Positions 34,006-38,301 of a stretch of 50,672 bases of DNA are shown here, piece by piece; position 1 is the stretch's first letter; each line of letters begins with the position of its first letter. A model generated the notes under the pieces. The model worked only from the letters and a program-made list of their open reading frames with translations, made no database searches and had not been told where the DNA came from. The DNA comes from Candidatus Micrarchaeia archaeon (GTDB lineage Archaea > Micrarchaeota > Micrarchaeia > Micrarchaeales > Micrarchaeaceae), in NCBI GenBank assembly GCA_049964795.1, contig JBMFWY010000004.1, positions 1-50,672 of the forward strand. The letters run 5' to 3'. The translations under genes were made by a program, and so were the position numbers.

Positions 34006-35301
34006 CTACATAAATTTAGGAATTTTCCTTCTGAATGACCTATCGTTCTTGAAATTGTTGAAAAGTTTTTTCATCTTGTTGAACTCTGAAATCATTTCCC
34101 TTACGTCTTTTTCTGAAGTGCCGCTTCCTTTTGCTATGCGCTGTATCCTTCCTGGTTCATGAAGCAGCTTTTCATTTTTTCTCTCTTGCTTGGTCATTGA
34201 TGAGATTATTGCATGGTAAAGCTTTAGTTTATCCTCGCCTTTTTCTAGCATATCTTTTGGAATGTCTGGAGCACCTATCATACCAAAAATGCTTTTCAGC
34301 GAACCCATCTTCCCCATCGCCTTAAGCTGCGAGTAGAAAGTCTCAAAATTCAATTCCTCGCTTTCCAGCTCTTCAGGCTTTATCCCTGCTTCGGCTATTG
34401 CCTTCTCAACAGTGCTTGAGAGAGCTTCGATATCAGGCACGCCAAGAAGGTTTCCTATGAACTTTGCAGAATCATAAGGCTTCAAGTCGCCAAGCTTTTC
34501 GCCTGAGCCAAGAAACATGACGCTTGCCTTTGCGGCAGCGGCAGCGCTCAAAGCCCCACCACCCTTTGCGGAACCATCAGTCTTTGTGAGAATTATTCCT
34601 GTAATTCCTATTGCTTTGTCAAATTCGCGGGCCTGCTTGCCAGCTGTTTGCCCCATGTCTGCGCTTATGACAAGCACTTTCTCTTCTGGATTGAAAGCCT
34701 TGCTAACTCGAACCAGCTCGTTTACCAGATCGCTATCTAGCGCACTTCTGCCGCTGGTATCACACACTATTACCTTTTTGCCTGAAAGCGCTTTTAAGCC
34801 CTCTTTGGCTATTTTTGCGGCATCCTTTTCGCCGTGCATGCCGAAGAAGGCAACATTGGCCTGCTTCGCAAGTGTCTCAAGCTGCTCGTATGCTGCAGGG
34901 CGTACAACATCGCAACATATTACCCCGGCACTTAAGCCCCTGTCCTGATAGAACTTTGCAAGCTTTGCCGCTGTTGTCGTCTTTCCAGAGCCATATAACC
35001 CAGCAAGTATTATCCTTTTAGGCTTGAGTTCAGGAGCATACGATTTGCCCATCAACTTTACTAACTCTTCATAGACCATGTTCGTGATATAGTCGCGCTG
35101 AGAAAGGCCTTTTGGTGGCTTGCTTTTAAGCGCTTTTTCCTCTATTGCAGAAGTGAATGCGAAGACGAGCTGCACCTCCACGTCTGCGCTCAGCAAGGTC
35201 TTTTGAAGCTCCTTATTGAATTCTTTTATCGTCTTTGAATCTATTATTGTGGCGTTGGTCAACTTTGCTATGGCCTTCCTCAACCCTTCTCCCAAATCCA
35301 T
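34006..35301 (-). CDS. srp54: Signal recognition particle protein SRP54
   Basis: L.ADV, GLYGSGKTTT, RPAAYEQL, DTSGR, TK.DGSAKGGGALS, M domain IISSMT..ER..RIA.GSG. Confidence 0.95.
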   Translation of the reverse strand: MDLGEGLRKAIAKLTNATIIDSKTIKEFNKELQKTLLSADVEVQLVFAFTSAIEEKALKSKPPKGLSQRDYITNMVYEELVKLMGKSYAPELKPKRIILAGLYGSGKTTTAAKLAKFYQDRGLSAGVICCDVVRPAAYEQLETLAKQANVAFFGMHGEKDAAKIAKEGLKALSGKKVIVCDTSGRSALDSDLVNELVRVSKAFNPEEKVLVISADMGQTAGKQAREFDKAIGITGIILTKTDGSAKGGGALSAAAAAKASVMFLGSGEKLGDLKPYDSAKFIGNLLGVPDIEALSSTVEKAIAEAGIKPEELESEELNFETFYSQLKAMGKMGSLKSIFGMIGAPDIPKDMLEKGEDKLKLYHAIISSMTKQERKNEKLLHEPGRIQRIAKGSGTSEKDVREMISEFNKMKKLFNNFKNDRSFRRKIPKFM

Positions 35302-35424
35302 AGTATCGCTGCTATTGTTTTCCTTTCTTATATTTCAGGACGTAAAATCAATAAAATAGGCATGTCAGTATTTGCAGCACATATATTAATATTTAGTGCA
35401 TCTTTTATTATCGGTGCATATCCT

Positions 35425-36564
35425 ATGAAGCTTGTCATTACACAGGCTAACCTTACTCTTAAGGGAGGAGCCGAGAGAGTAGTCCTTAAGATCGCAAAAA
35501 GGTATGATGCAAAGATATACACCGCTGAATATGATCGGGAACAAACCTTCGAGGAATTCAAAGACCTTGACATTGAGGTTATAAGCAGCAAATCTTTGCT
35601 TTCTTTACTGCCTTACAATAGACTTTCGCAAGGCATGAATTATGGCATGGCATTTTACCTCAAAAAAATGAGCGAAAATTATGATGTCATAAATGCACAT
35701 GTTTCGCCTAGCCATTGGATAAGGAACAAGAATGAAAGAGTTTTATGGTATTGTCACACTCCGCTTAGAGAGGTGTATGACCTTTACAGATACAGGCTTA
35801 GTATAAAAAAGAGGGTTGAGAAGCCTGCTTATATAATAGGGTCGATTGCAGTAAGGAATATAGACAAAAAAGTAGTTAAAAAGATAGAAGGCATATTAGC
35901 AAACAGCAACAATACAAAGCTTAGGATAGAAAGATACCTAGGGAGGAATGACGCCAAGGTCGTAAACCCCGGAATAGATGTTGAAGGGTATGAAAACAAA
36001 GGTACGGAAAGGTTTTTCTTTTATCCGTCTAGATTTTCCCCAAACAAAAGGCAGGAATATGTAATAAAGGCTTTCGAAATCTTAAAGAAAAGGTATGGGA
36101 AGTTAGGGTATAAGCTTGTGCTTGCCGGAGCGGTTTCCAGAGACAAATTTTATTACAGCTATTATGAATACATAAAGAAGTTAGCCTCAGAAGTGCAGGA
36201 TATAGAAGTGCTTGAAAATGCAAAAGATGAGGAAGTGCGCTCTCTAATGTCTAGGGCTACAGCGATACTTTATGCCCCGATAGACGAGGATTTCGGGCTT
36301 GTGCCGCTTGAAGCTATGGCTTCAATGAAACCGATAATTGCAGTAGGTCAAGGAGGACCTAAAGAAACCGTAGTCAATGGCAAAACAGGGTACTTGGTAA
36401 GGAACGAGGAGGAGATGGCAGAGATGATGAACTTTGTTATAGAGCACCCGAAGATAGCAGAGCAGTTAGGAAAAGAGGGGAGAGAAAGGGTAGAGCTGAG
36501 GTACTCTTGGAAAGAGTTCTTTGAAAAGTTTGACAAGGAAGCGAGGAAAGTTGCAAAATTTTAG
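35425..36564 (+). CDS. Glycosyltransferase family 4 (GT-B)
   Basis: GGAERV, YCHTP.R, SR..PNKRQ, EDFGLVPLEAMA; start reset to ATG 35425. Confidence 0.92.
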   Translation: MKLVITQANLTLKGGAERVVLKIAKRYDAKIYTAEYDREQTFEEFKDLDIEVISSKSLLSLLPYNRLSQGMNYGMAFYLKKMSENYDVINAHVSPSHWIRNKNERVLWYCHTPLREVYDLYRYRLSIKKRVEKPAYIIGSIAVRNIDKKVVKKIEGILANSNNTKLRIERYLGRNDAKVVNPGIDVEGYENKGTERFFFYPSRFSPNKRQEYVIKAFEILKKRYGKLGYKLVLAGAVSRDKFYYSYYEYIKKLASEVQDIEVLENAKDEEVRSLMSRATAILYAPIDEDFGLVPLEAMASMKPIIAVGQGGPKETVVNGKTGYLVRNEEEMAEMMNFVIEHPKIAEQLGKEGRERVELRYSWKEFFEKFDKEARKVAKF

Positions 36565-36566
36565 GT

Positions 36567-36857
36567 TCAATCTTCTTTTGAAGAAGGGTTTAGGCTTATC
36601 ACATATTTGGAAAGTATCTTCGACGCATAGTCAAGGACTTTCTTAACGTTTTCTTCGGTGCTTGTGCCCGTGCAGATTATCTTGCCATTCTTGAACAGTA
36701 TCAGCACACCCTTAGGATTTGCTATCCTGAATATTGCACCTGGAAACTGCTCGGGCTCATAATCCACAGCCTTAACTTCCCTGGACAAAGCGTAAAGGTC
36801 TATCACTGCATGAAAATCTGCGCTGACAACAATGTTTTGAATTTTTATTGGTGGCAT
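36567..36857 (-). CDS. Single-repeat (half-size) TATA-box binding protein homolog
   Basis: IQNIVVSA, YEPEQFPG.I.R...PK...LF..GKI.CTG make up exactly one TBP repeat; 96 aa. Confidence 0.88.
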   Translation of the reverse strand: MPPIKIQNIVVSADFHAVIDLYALSREVKAVDYEPEQFPGAIFRIANPKGVLILFKNGKIICTGTSTEENVKKVLDYASKILSKYVISLNPSSKED

Positions 36858-36987
36858 CTTTATTTCCTCAGATTTCTTATTTGAATTAGATTTGGCGGAC
36901 GTTTAATCACAGTATAGAATTAGAAAGAAAGCTTTAAATAAGTAAATAAACGCTCTTGCAGAAGTGCAAGTAGGAAAAAGGGTAAGC

Positions 36988-38097
36988 ATGGTAAAAAAGC
37001 ATGTCTATATAATAGGCGCAGGAGTGACAGGCCTTTTCGCAGCCGCAGAATTAGCTGCGAGAGGTATAGACGTGACTGTTTATGATTCTAAGAAAGAAGT
37101 AGAGCAAGGGGCAGAAAAGGCTTCAGGAGTCCTTTCTAAAAGAGGGCTCAACGAAGCAGGCATACCATACAAAGGCTCAGAGATTAATGTCCTTAAAGGG
37201 GCGTGGTTATATGCAGGGAGTGAAGCGCTTAAAATAAAATCAGAAAAAGAGATGGCTTATGTAATAGACAGGAAGAAGCTTGTAAGGCTCTGTTATGAAA
37301 ATTCTGTTGAAAAAGGAGCAAAGATAGAACTGGGCAGGAAAATTGAGAGGGAAGAACTCCAGGAATTGTCAAAAAGTGGTAATATAATAGTTGGAGCCGA
37401 TGGCGCAGTGTCAACAGTCGCGAGCACCTTCGGATTCCCGAAAATAAATGAATACATACTTACTTACAAAGCAGAATATAGCAAGGCAAAAGTTGAAGAT
37501 AGTGAAATGGTTAGTCTTGTATTCAGCAACAGGATAAAAAGGTTCTTTGGTTGGAGTGTGCCATATTCAAAAAGTAAGATCGAGATCGGGGTAGGTATAA
37601 GCAATAGGGCAAAAACGAGCAGTACATATGCATTTGGGGAGCTTCTCAAAGAAAATCCTATAAAGGAGGCCATAGAAGGCGCAAAAGAAGAAGTAAGGCA
37701 TGCGAGCGTCATACCGCTCAGCGTCAGGGAAAAAACAGTAAAGAGAAATGTTTTGCTTGTTGGTGATGCGGCAGGCCAGGTAAAAGCAACAACAGGAGGA
37801 GGAATAATTTTCGGATCGCTTTGCGCGAAGGAAGCCGCAATGGCGATAGAAAAAAATATAAAAGAAGGCGCAAGCTTAGAAGCGTACGAAAAGATGTGGA
37901 GGGCTAAATATGGAATGGAGCTAAGGCTTCACAATATTGCTCATGAATATTATTCCTCACTTTCCACAAAAGGCTTTGAAAGGCTTTTCAAGATGGCGAG
38001 GATTTTTGGAATGGATGATTTCTTGAGCATTTATGGGGATATGGACAGCCCAAGCAGAATAATAAAGAGGTTTTTCTTGAGAGGATTGGCGGAGTAG
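36988..38097 (+). CDS. Geranylgeranyl reductase-family FAD oxidoreductase
   Basis: IIGAG..G, IVGADGA.S.VA, W..P, LVGDAAGQVK..TGGGI; start reset to ATG 36988. Confidence 0.88.
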   Translation: MVKKHVYIIGAGVTGLFAAAELAARGIDVTVYDSKKEVEQGAEKASGVLSKRGLNEAGIPYKGSEINVLKGAWLYAGSEALKIKSEKEMAYVIDRKKLVRLCYENSVEKGAKIELGRKIEREELQELSKSGNIIVGADGAVSTVASTFGFPKINEYILTYKAEYSKAKVEDSEMVSLVFSNRIKRFFGWSVPYSKSKIEIGVGISNRAKTSSTYAFGELLKENPIKEAIEGAKEEVRHASVIPLSVREKTVKRNVLLVGDAAGQVKATTGGGIIFGSLCAKEAAMAIEKNIKEGASLEAYEKMWRAKYGMELRLHNIAHEYYSSLSTKGFERLFKMARIFGMDDFLSIYGDMDSPSRIIKRFFLRGLAE

Positions 38098-38301
38098 AAG
38101 TAGAATTCAATACGAAGAAAGAAGCAGAGAAAGCTATTTATTGCTTTTTTAATAGGACTGCTATGTTTCGGATACGACAGATAATGGTGCCGGCATTTTG
38201 CAGGTTATACATATAATTGAGGAACTACACCAACAATAGGACTTGACGGCGTAAGTAATACTTGTAAGATAGATCTACTTTAAATACAATACTCTCTAGT
38301 G

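What the first reader, a model, noticed from the sequence alone, without database searches (positions are those of the whole stretch)
36567..36960. Stand-alone single-repeat TBP: a candidate homodimeric, symmetric TATA-binding factor
Seen: 96 aa with exactly one TBP repeat. It keeps both DNA-intercalating Phe positions (QFPG, ILFKNGK), the QN and R contacts and the acidic YEPEQ stirrup that binds TFB. There is no room for a second repeat: an in-frame TAA lies 16 codons upstream, a divergent gene starts 130 nt away, and a convergent gene ends 2 nt from the stop. A TATA-like element (TTTAAA ~36933-36938) is upstream and the frame is intact. Established: canonical TBP is a ~180-aa two-repeat saddle thought to descend from a homodimer. 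Inference: it homodimerises into a symmetric saddle, pairs with another half encoded elsewhere (split TBP), or acts as a TFB-sequestering regulator.
Basis: partly seen in the sequence, partly recalled or inferred. Interest (0 to 1): 0.82.

Follow-up and report, generated by a model that had tools for sequence, protein, structure and literature searches.

The report
Second half-size TBP gene of Micrarchaeota
This tiny archaeon has no normal two-lobed TATA-binding protein but two separate, strongly conserved one-lobe genes, and the gene in this window is the younger, more derived of the two, so it probably supplies one half of a two-chain version of this core transcription factor.

Summary
Window 36567-36857 (-) is an intact 96-aa ORF with one Pfam TBP repeat (E 1.7e-24) and no room for a second.

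The genome is a Micrarchaeota (DPANN) assembly, 91.6% complete. It has no two-repeat TBP, but a second one-repeat gene ("A") lies on another contig, in the L21e-flanked slot where relatives keep their TBP.

The window gene ("B") belongs to a separate, well-supported clade with its own conserved locus (glycosyltransferase - B - FAD oxidoreductase). B-type genes were found in 54 of 57 genomes of its family, 13 of 35 of the sister family and 0 of 109 elsewhere in the phylum. B is under purifying selection (median dN/dS about 0.11).

Tree and synteny favour origin by duplication of a one-repeat gene, not fission of a two-repeat gene, but an AU test does not exclude fission (p 0.22).

A model pairs A and B through the central strands, saddle-like (ipSAE 0.70; best control 0.00). 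This cannot separate A:B from B:B.

Best reading: B is a subunit of a dimeric TBP, most likely with A.

Most B genes of the family start at a conserved ACG; here that ACG is still in frame, 15 codons upstream of the ATG.

This scan noted such genes before on other genomes. My eight literature searches, seven on TBP, found no paper on them.

The parts
36567..36857 (-). Half-TBP gene 'B': 96 codons from the ATG plus the stop. It holds one TBP repeat at residues 4-85.
   Evidence: ORF. PF00352 E 1.7e-24. Solved TBPs up to E 2.8e-36. Member of clade B with support 100/99. Median dN/dS 0.112 in the clade.
36858..36902 (-). Fifteen in-frame codons upstream of the ATG. They begin with ACG (36900-36902), the position of the likely start codon in most relatives. 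This is either a Lys/Ser-rich N-terminal tail or a 5' leader.
   Evidence: the open frame starts with ACG directly after the stop. In 16 of 21 family-f1 B genes an in-frame ACG sits 5-7 nt behind a GGTG/AGGT/GAGG motif, and 7 of the 21 have no ATG/GTG/TTG at all before the domain. Here the motif is weakened to TGTG.
36903..36905 (-). In-frame TAA that closes the frame upstream, so no second repeat can be encoded.
   Evidence: The open frame is 111 codons.
36866..36869 (-). GAGG ribosome-binding-like motif, 8 nt before the ATG.
   Evidence: It is conserved in the same-genus genome G002.
36927..36938 (.). Palindromic TATA-like TTTAAA (36933-36938). On the + strand a purine-rich GAAAGC (36927-36932) stands directly 5' of it. 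It may serve the divergent + strand gene, the half-TBP gene, or both.
   Evidence: Sequence. A TATA-like hexamer followed by CTTTC (in the orientation of B) recurs upstream of B genes of several genera. Which gene it serves was not tested.
35362..36564 (+). Convergent neighbour: a GT4-type glycosyltransferase, the conserved flank of B genes.
   Evidence: Pfam Glycos_transf_1 E 1.8e-28. A homologue lies next to 26 of 28 B loci and next to 0 of 79 A, C, other-single and full-length loci.
36988..38097 (+). Divergent neighbour: an FAD-dependent oxidoreductase (geranylgeranyl-reductase-like), the conserved flank of B genes.
   Evidence: Pfam FAD_binding_3 E 8.2e-13. A homologue lies next to 22 of 28 B loci and none of the other classes.

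Best explanation
The gene encodes a working one-lobe TATA-binding protein subunit, which I call paralogue B.

The organism is a Micrarchaeota (DPANN) archaeon. Its lineage uses one-repeat TBPs instead of the fused two-repeat protein. It has two such genes:
- A lies in the ancestral TBP slot next to the ribosomal protein L21e gene, on contig C9.
- B lies in this window, in a separate conserved locus.

B arose by duplication of a one-repeat TBP gene in the common ancestor of the window's family and its sister family. It then changed quickly, mainly at the dimer face, and has been held under purifying selection since.

A single lobe cannot form the DNA-binding saddle, so B must pair. The most likely partner is A. 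Pairing would run through antiparallel strand 1 and helix 2 and give a two-chain, asymmetric saddle that binds the TATA box and recruits the genome's single TFB, next to A:A homodimers.

Shown: gene integrity, one repeat only, no two-repeat TBP found in this assembly, two conserved paralogue clades with separate synteny, purifying selection, and conserved DNA-contact and stirrup motifs.

Inferred: dimerisation, choice of partner, and DNA and TFB binding.
For: Gene content.
- The own genome has two PF00352 matches at E<=1, each a single repeat in a 111-codon open frame on different contigs. There is no two-repeat frame.
- Among the 25 genomes of family f1 examined at locus level (24 relatives and the window's own), the 23 with any match all hold both an A-type and a B-type gene. 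Two of the B genes are cut by contig ends. These include G013, a single contig with A and B about 760 kb apart.

Distribution of B. B-type hits (best E<=1e-35, identity 60% or more) were found in 54 of 57 f1 genomes, 13 of 35 f3 genomes and 0 of 109 genomes of other families. Without the two unpublished genomes these are 53 of 56 and 12 of 34.

Tree. A+B+C form one clade (93/94), B 100/99 and A 100/98. In the larger tree B has a long stem of 0.44.

Synteny.
- An L21e neighbour is present at 21/23 A loci, 27/28 C loci, 20/20 full-length loci and 0/28 B loci.
- A glycosyltransferase neighbour is present at 26/28 B loci and 0 others.

Selection. Median dN/dS is 0.112 for B (34 usable pairs), 0.158 for A (48) and 0.070 for C (72).

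Conservation. The 25 invariant columns in 28 B proteins include Y33, E34, P35, Q37, F38, P39, G40, F55, K56, N57, G58 and K59; E36 and N8 are nearly invariant, at 90% or more.

TFB. There is one TFB gene in the own genome and in nearly all of the 41 genomes searched. Its copy number does not track B.

Complex model of A+B.
- ipSAE 0.70, 0.70 and 0.69; best of 3 controls 0.00.
- The mark was reached by 58 of 80 solved complexes and 2 of 110 mismatched pairs.
- The runs agree in at least 90% of contacts, and the partner pLDDT is 86-87.
- Strand 1 of A (residues 17-25) pairs antiparallel with strand 1 of B (residues 4-14).
- The pass may come from likeness to solved TBPs.

Dimer face and asymmetry.
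- 7 of 11 B-specific signature residues fall on that predicted face, which covers 31 of 88 positions (Fisher one-sided p 0.041).
- A and B are 48% identical here (median 49% in 21 genomes). That is as different as the two repeats of ordinary archaeal TBPs, whose median is 36% with a range of 31-55% in 7 proteins.
Against: - No tool here separates A:B from B:B or A:A. The single complex job tested A+B only, and any two TBP halves may score well from memory of solved TBPs.
- B's sister-family relatives coexist with a C-type copy that looks unchanged from sole-copy genomes. In addition, 21 of 35 f3 genomes have the C-type gene alone. B is therefore dispensable in that family, and the main copy can evidently work alone.
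- One f1 genome (G084, 92% complete) shows a B-type gene as its only match.
- Both A and B keep the full stirrup motif, so no division of labour is visible there.
- The signature-at-interface enrichment is weak (p 0.041) and rests on a predicted interface.
- The own genome is 91.6% complete, so a two-repeat gene in the missing part cannot be formally excluded.
- A same-genus genome (G004, 92% complete) shows no TBP match at all. This shows that assemblies of this group can miss the genes.
Confidence: 0.5

Rival explanations
1. B forms its own symmetric B:B homodimer. This would be an alternative TBP with different promoter or partner preference, working beside an A:A homodimer, like the extra TBP paralogues of other archaea.
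For: - The ancestor was most likely a homodimer. Sole one-repeat genes sit in the TBP slot in 21 of 35 f3 genomes and in many other families.
- B keeps every DNA-contact and stirrup motif.
- B's signature residues cluster on the dimer face (7 of 11). That is also what insulation of a new homodimer from the old one would give.
- Positions 7 and 11 both changed in B. They lie opposite each other across the predicted antiparallel strand pairing.
Against: - No extra TFB accompanies B.
- If ACG starts are weak, B would be scarce, and a scarce subunit pairs with the abundant one by mass action. This is inference only, and in this genus an ATG start exists.
- The A+B model passes. B:B was not run, so this is not discriminating.
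Confidence: 0.3
2. True split TBP. A and B are the N-terminal and C-terminal repeats of an ancestral two-repeat gene that broke in two, with B relocated. The pair is then an obligate heterodimer.
For: - Against solved archaeal TBPs, A scores higher on the first repeat in 4 of 4 alignments shown.
- B scores higher on the second repeat in 2 of 3 alignments.
- B starts P-x-I-K-I-Q-N like second repeats.
- The AU test does not reject B grouping with the second repeats of full-length Micrarchaeota TBPs (p 0.22, lnL difference 25.1).
Against: - The ML trees put A, B and the sole-copy C genes in one clade, apart from both repeats of full-length Micrarchaeota TBPs (93; 93/94).
- The sole-copy C-type protein is more like second repeats in 3 of 4 alignments, although it sits in A's slot. 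Repeat likeness therefore does not track orthology.
- 21 of 35 f3 genomes live with the slot copy alone.
- The alignment has only 88 columns and the repeats of full-length proteins evolve in concert, so the signal is weak either way.
Confidence: 0.12
3. B is a regulator, not a promoter-binding subunit. As a lone lobe or a poisoning partner it would sequester TFB or cap A, lowering transcription.
For: - The stirrup motif that binds TFB in canonical TBPs is invariant in B.
- B is dispensable in part of the sister family.
- An unusual ACG start in most relatives could mean low, tunable dosage.
Against: - The residues aligned with the DNA-kinking Phe pair and the Asn of strand 1 are conserved in B: F38 and F55 are invariant and N8 is nearly invariant, at 90% or more. 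A pure decoy would not need them.
- dN/dS is as low as for the main copy.
Confidence: 0.06
4. Artefact or decaying remnant: a truncated pseudogene, a contaminant or an assembly error.
For: None found. The only full-length TBPs in the family and its sister family were contaminant-like: G014's pairs with a Nitrososphaerota protein, and G029's lies on a 3.7-kb contig.
Against: - The frame is intact, with complete flanking genes.
- The same locus architecture is seen in 26 of 28 B loci.
- There are 465 similar short proteins in public data.
- dN/dS is about 0.11.
Confidence: 0.01

Closest known systems
Canonical archaeal TBP (solved examples hit here: 1MP9, 2Z8U, 1PCZ/1AIS/1D3U)
   Same: Same Pfam domain. 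E values reach 2.8e-36, and the Phe, Asn and stirrup motifs align. The predicted A:B pairing places the two strand-1 segments side by side. From recall, this is the arrangement of the two repeats in the canonical saddle.
   Different: One repeat per chain instead of two fused repeats. The saddle has to be made from two chains encoded by genes on different contigs. No two-repeat gene was found in the genome.
Monopartite TBP-domain proteins of Thermococcales and halobacterial TbpA (Brindefalk et al. 2013, PMC3597702; passages read)
   Same: Stand-alone proteins of about 90-100 aa with a single TBP domain in archaea. They have been discussed as models of a pre-duplication TBP.
   Different: Those proteins coexist with a normal full-length TBP in the same genome, and the Thermococcales group is only distantly similar to TBP (Table 3 of the paper). 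Here no full-length TBP was found, and the protein is closely similar to genuine TBP repeats. I did not compare the sequences directly.
Sole one-repeat TBPs of other Micrarchaeota
   Same: Same clade of repeats, same length class, same motifs. They are the likely ancestral state from which A and B derive.
   Different: Those genomes have one gene, in the L21e slot, and so presumably a symmetric homodimer. The window gene is an extra paralogue at a different locus, with 11 clade-specific residues.
Archaea with several TBP paralogues (Halobacterium, Methanosarcina; recalled, not checked here)
   Same: More than one TBP-type gene per genome, possibly giving alternative promoter-recognition complexes.
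   Different: Those paralogues are complete two-repeat proteins and often come with several TFBs. Here the paralogues are half proteins that could mix, and there is one TFB.

Membership tests
TBP domain family (Pfam PF00352) | Sequence match to the TBP repeat above the curated threshold | tested here: met
   85.9 bits against a cut-off of 22.9; profile positions 2-85 of 85.
TBP domain family (Pfam PF00352) | DNA-contact residues of a repeat: the Phe pair that kinks DNA and the Asn of strand 1 | tested here: met
   F38, F55 and N8 align with the same residues in solved TBPs. F38 and F55 are invariant and N8 is nearly invariant (90% or more) in 28 B proteins. The functional roles are recalled from the TBP literature.
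Canonical TBP (the general transcription factor) | Two tandem repeats in one chain of about 180 aa | tested here: not met
   One repeat only, in a 111-codon open frame bounded by TAA and flanked by other genes.
Canonical TBP (the general transcription factor) | Acidic stirrup (Y-E-P-E-Q-F-P-G) of the TFB-binding lobe | tested here: met
   Present and conserved in B: Y33, E34, P35, Q37, F38, P39 and G40 are invariant and E36 is nearly invariant, at 90% or more. It is also present in A.
Canonical TBP (the general transcription factor) | Binds TATA DNA and recruits TFB and RNA polymerase | not testable with these tools
   Needs EMSA, footprinting or in vitro transcription.
Monopartite TBP-domain proteins (Brindefalk et al. 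2013) | Single TBP domain beside a full-length TBP in the same genome | tested here: not met
   No two-repeat TBP in the own genome at E<=1 or in the 23 f1 genomes with matches. The exception is a contaminant-like copy in G014.
Split gene (one protein encoded by two genes after fission) | The two genes correspond to the N and C parts of the ancestral single gene | tested here: inconclusive
   The trees favour duplication of a half. The AU test gives p 0.22. Repeat-likeness hints point the other way for A and B but not for the sole copy.
Split gene (one protein encoded by two genes after fission) | Both genes co-occur across genomes | tested here: met
   All 23 f1 genomes with matches, of the 25 examined at locus level, have both. 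In the wider sample, 51 of 57 f1 genomes have exactly two matches. In the sister family B is absent from 21 of 35 genomes.
Heterodimeric two-chain TBP (proposed here) | A and B bind each other | tested here: inconclusive
   The model supports binding: ipSAE 0.70, best control 0.00, a mark reached by 58 of 80 solved complexes and 2 of 110 mismatched pairs. The pass may reflect likeness to solved TBPs. B:B and A:A were not run.

The most novel reading that the evidence does not exclude
Micrarchaeota replay the birth of TBP in living cells. A lineage whose only TBP is a one-lobe homodimer duplicated that gene. In the window's family it now builds the promoter-recognition saddle from two different chains, A and B, that are as dissimilar as the two lobes of a normal TBP. 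Asymmetry would then have been re-invented in trans. With two genes the cell could make three saddles (A:A, A:B, B:B) and tune them through an unusual ACG start codon on B.
Probability: 0.4. Interest if true: 0.88.

Novelty: new variant of a known kind. Interest (0 to 1): 0.76.

Why it matters
TBP is the textbook case of a protein thought to descend from a homodimer by duplication and fusion. The unfused stages have only been inferred.

Here they seem to be alive. Related genomes carry one half gene, two diverged half genes, or a fused gene whose lobes are unusually alike. That makes several old questions directly testable with natural proteins:
- Can a symmetric saddle work?
- What does asymmetry add, given that in archaea the BRE-TFB contact sets direction (stated in PMC7289017, passage read)?
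- How do paralogous subunits sort after duplication?

There is also a practical side. Annotation pipelines call these genes hypothetical or truncated (names).

Tried and rejected
- RNA evidence. No RNA holder was listed for window 35300-38100, so read laying was not used and expression and the 5' end remain untested.
- Promoter consensus. I tried to derive one from 609 crude gene starts of the genome. Only a ribosome-binding motif (A)AGGTG at about -16 came out. No TATA peak appeared, so I could not decide which gene the TTTAAA serves.
- ACG as a general start codon in this genome. It is not enriched: 2 of 167 GGTG-spaced frame starts, against 57 ATG, 22 TTG and 11 GTG.
- AU test of 'B plus all second repeats as one clade'. 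Not rejected, p 0.22, so the fission origin stays open.
- Position 7 of A as a partner-specific change. It is V in 14, E in 8 and Q in 1 of 23 A proteins, which is too variable to use.
- TFB copy number as a marker of a second TBP/TFB pair. It shows no relation to B.
- Full-length TBPs in G014 and G029. Rejected as native genes. The G014 copy pairs with a Nitrososphaerota protein repeat by repeat (support 99). The G029 copy lies on a 3.7-kb contig among outgroups.
- Literature. Searches gave one relevant paper (PMC3597702). PMC8407392 only says that TBP and TFB are conserved in about 88.8% of DPANN genomes (passage). PMC12917281 uses 'monopartite' for a hypothetical prototype (passage).

Full report
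**1. What is in the window**

The ORF 36567..36857 (-) encodes 96 aa. It has one complete Pfam TBP repeat, residues 4-85, E 1.7e-24. Its best matches among solved structures are archaeal TBPs, with 1mp9 at E 2.8e-36. In each of them it aligns to both repeats. The QN of strand 1, the Phe of QFPG and of LFKNGK, and the YEPEQ turn are all matched.

The frame is closed by a TAA 16 codons above the ATG. A GT4 glycosyltransferase gene ends 2 nt from the stop. An FAD-oxidoreductase gene starts 130 nt upstream on the other strand. The gene lies well inside the contig.

**2. The rest of the genome**

The window is contig C4 of a 724,721-base assembly of 34 contigs, 91.6% complete. Near-identical proteins in public data are labelled Candidatus Micrarchaeaceae or Micrarchaeota, so this is a DPANN archaeon.

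A six-frame scan with PF00352 at E<=1 finds two places. One is the window gene. The other lies on contig C9, again a single repeat in a 111-codon open frame. No two-repeat frame exists in the assembly.

The C9 gene ('A', 105 aa from its ATG) is a TBP repeat at E 7.2e-26. There is one TFB gene, on C6, with two cyclin repeats in one 389-codon frame.

**3. Relatives**

Among 40 relatives, 22 of 24 genomes of the same family (f1) have matches. At locus level every one of them, and the window's own genome (23 in all), has one A-type and one B-type gene at separate places. Two B genes are cut by contig ends. The two without matches are 60% and 92% complete.

In a sample of 201 genomes of the phylum:
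- 51 of 57 f1 genomes have exactly two matches (50 of 56 without unpublished G054).
- 21 of 35 genomes of the sister family f3 have exactly one match.
- 35 genomes of other families also have one.
- Families f4, f5, f6, f8, f9, f13 and f19 have two adjacent matches inside one 190-220-codon frame, which is a normal fused TBP.

Searching the same 201 genomes with the window protein gives a clean gap. B-type hits have E<=1e-35 and 60% identity or more. They occur in 54 of 57 f1 genomes, 13 of 35 f3 genomes and 0 of 109 others. Without G054 and G204 these are 53 of 56 and 12 of 34. G084 (f1) shows a B-type gene only.

The closest proteins longer than 168 aa are 56% identical or less. The exception is one 174-aa entry at 81%, whose extra length I did not examine. 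No close fused form was seen.

**4. Origin**

I built a repeat-level tree of 145 rows and 88 columns. It puts all Micrarchaeota repeats, single or from fused genes, in one clade (97), apart from the repeats of other archaeal TBPs.

The fused genes found in G014 and G029 fall with outgroups. G014 pairs repeat by repeat with a Nitrososphaerota protein (99). I take both as contaminants.

Inside the order, three groups appear:
- A: 23 rows, all f1.
- C: 28 rows, the f3 main copy.
- B: 21 f1 rows plus 7 f3 rows, support 100, stem length 0.44.

A careful tree on 98 rows gives A+B+C 93/94, B 100/99 and A 100/98.

Synteny agrees:

| Neighbour | A | C | full-length | other single | B |
|---|---|---|---|---|---|
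| L21e gene | 21/23 | 27/28 | 20/20 | 6/8 | 0/28 |
| Glycosyltransferase | 0 | 0 | 0 | 0 | 26/28 |
| FAD oxidoreductase | 0 | 0 | 0 | 0 | 22/28 |

Most of these loci had flanks of only 1.5 kb.

So A and C hold the ancestral TBP slot, and B is a relocated duplicate of a half gene.

Evidence against this reading must be stated.
- An AU test does not reject B grouping with the second repeats of the fused genes (p 0.22).
- A scores higher on first repeats of solved TBPs in 4 of 4 alignments.
- B scores higher on second repeats in 2 of 3 alignments.
- The sole-copy C protein, however, is second-repeat-like in 3 of 4 alignments. This weakens that kind of argument.

**5. Constraint and change**

Most sequence pairs are saturated at synonymous sites and were dropped. 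Among pairs with 0.05<dS<1.5, the results are:

| Clade | Median dN/dS | Usable pairs | Possible pairs |
|---|---|---|---|
| B | 0.112 | 34 | 378 |
| A | 0.158 | 48 | 253 |
| C | 0.070 | 72 | 378 |

Against the same-genus genome G002, B has dN 0.020 with dS beyond the method's range.

Twenty-five columns are invariant in 28 B proteins. They include seven of the eight stirrup residues and the FKNGK strand; the eighth stirrup residue, E36, is nearly invariant.

B has 11 clade-specific residues: I4, Q7, V11, H16, A17, I19, S25, I53, V74, S83 and V86. A and C have 2 each.

A and B of one genome are 43-55% identical (median 49%, n 21; 48% here). The two lobes of fused Micrarchaeota TBPs are 45-74% identical (median 66.5%, n 20). 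Those of other archaeal TBPs are 31-55% identical (median 36%, n 7).

**6. Pairing**

I ran one complex job, A with B, each with its clade alignment.
- It gave ipSAE 0.70, 0.70 and 0.69. The best of 3 controls was 0.00.
- This mark was reached by 58 of 80 solved complexes and 2 of 110 mismatched pairs.
- The runs agree in at least 90% of contacts, and the partner pLDDT is 86-87.
- The counts hold only roughly, because my own alignments were used.

The interface is strand 1 against strand 1, antiparallel, plus helix 2. From recall, this is how the two repeats meet in a normal TBP. The pass may therefore come from memory of solved TBPs.

It shows that B can be modelled as one half of a saddle. 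It does not show that A is preferred over B.

Seven of the 11 B-specific residues lie on this predicted face, which covers 31 of 88 positions (p 0.041). This fits either a tuned A:B face or a B:B face insulated from A.

**7. Start codon and promoter**

In 16 of 21 f1 B genes an in-frame ACG lies 5-7 nt behind GGTG, AGGT or GAGG. That is the genome-wide ribosome-binding motif and spacing. Seven of the 21 have no ATG, GTG or TTG between the upstream stop and the domain. All 7 f3 B genes have ATG at or near that place.

In the window the ACG (36900-36902) directly follows the TAA and is in frame, but its motif is weakened to TGTG. A new ATG with GAGG 8 nt upstream begins the domain. The same holds in G002.

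The product may therefore be 96 or 111 aa. The 15 extra codons differ at 7 codons, 6 of them non-synonymous, between G000 and G002 (sequences, counted by eye), which settles nothing.

ACG is not a common start in this genome: 2 of 167.

The TTTAAA is a palindrome. It has a purine-rich stretch on the side of the divergent gene, so it may serve that gene, B, or both. This is inference only.

**8. Mechanism**

A single lobe cannot make the saddle, so some dimer is needed.

In archaea the direction of the initiation complex is set by the contact of TFB with the BRE (PMC7289017, passage read). A symmetric or two-chain TBP is therefore workable in principle.

I rank the readings as follows:
- A:B heterodimer beside A:A: 0.5.
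- B:B alternative TBP: 0.3.
- Obligate split pair from fission: 0.12.
- Decoy or regulator: 0.06.
- Artefact: 0.01.

**9. What is known**

Eight literature searches, seven of them on TBP, found one relevant paper, Brindefalk et al. 2013 (abstract and passages read). It describes lone TBP domains that sit beside a full-length TBP. I found no paper on genomes whose only TBPs are half proteins.

This scan's own notes describe the same two-gene and one-gene states, and an ACG-started half TBP, on other genomes. I re-derived these points from my own calls.

**10. Limits**

- The assemblies are incomplete.
- The alignment has 88 columns.
- The groups are kin, not independent.
- The interface is predicted.
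- There are no expression data.
- Supplementary files of papers were closed.

Noticed in passing
window 36900-36902; loci L028, L030, L040, L050, L056, L062, L067 and 9 more: Most B genes of the family appear to start at an in-frame ACG placed 5-7 nt behind the ribosome-binding motif. Seven have no canonical start codon at all. Sister-family B genes have ATG there. In this genus a new ATG arose at the domain edge. ACG is not a common start in this genome (2 of 167).
   Followed up: partly
L092-L111 (full-length TBP genes of families f4, f5, f6, f8, f9, f13, f19): The two lobes of fused Micrarchaeota TBPs are unusually alike: median 66.5% identity against 36% in 7 other archaeal TBPs. In G041 a run of about 40 residues is identical in both lobes. 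All Micrarchaeota repeats form one clade. This points to concerted evolution between lobes or to recent re-fusion of a half gene.
   Followed up: partly
L003 (G014 contig 43) and L071 (G029 contig 77, 3.7 kb): These are the only two-repeat TBP genes in the window's family and sister family. They group with other phyla; G014's pairs with a Nitrososphaerota protein. They look like bin contamination.
   Followed up: yes
window 36921-36940: The TATA-like TTTAAA is a perfect palindrome between two divergent genes. A TATA-like hexamer followed by CTTTC recurs at B loci of several genera. It could be a shared bidirectional promoter, which would suit a symmetric TBP.
   Followed up: partly
G000 genome-wide, upstream of 609 crude gene starts: There is a strong (A)AGGTG motif about 5-6 nt before start codons, so most genes here seem to have leaders with a ribosome-binding site. 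TTG (22) is a more frequent start than GTG (11) behind this motif.
   Followed up: no
G004 (same genus, 92% complete) and G084 (same family, 92% complete): G004 has no TBP-domain match at all, and G084 has only the B-type gene. Either these small genes are often left unassembled, or some members really differ.
   Followed up: no
G026 contig 3, about 462.8-463.4 kb: One sister-family genome with a sole half TBP has a second TFB-like gene in a 480-codon frame. All other genomes searched have one.
   Followed up: no
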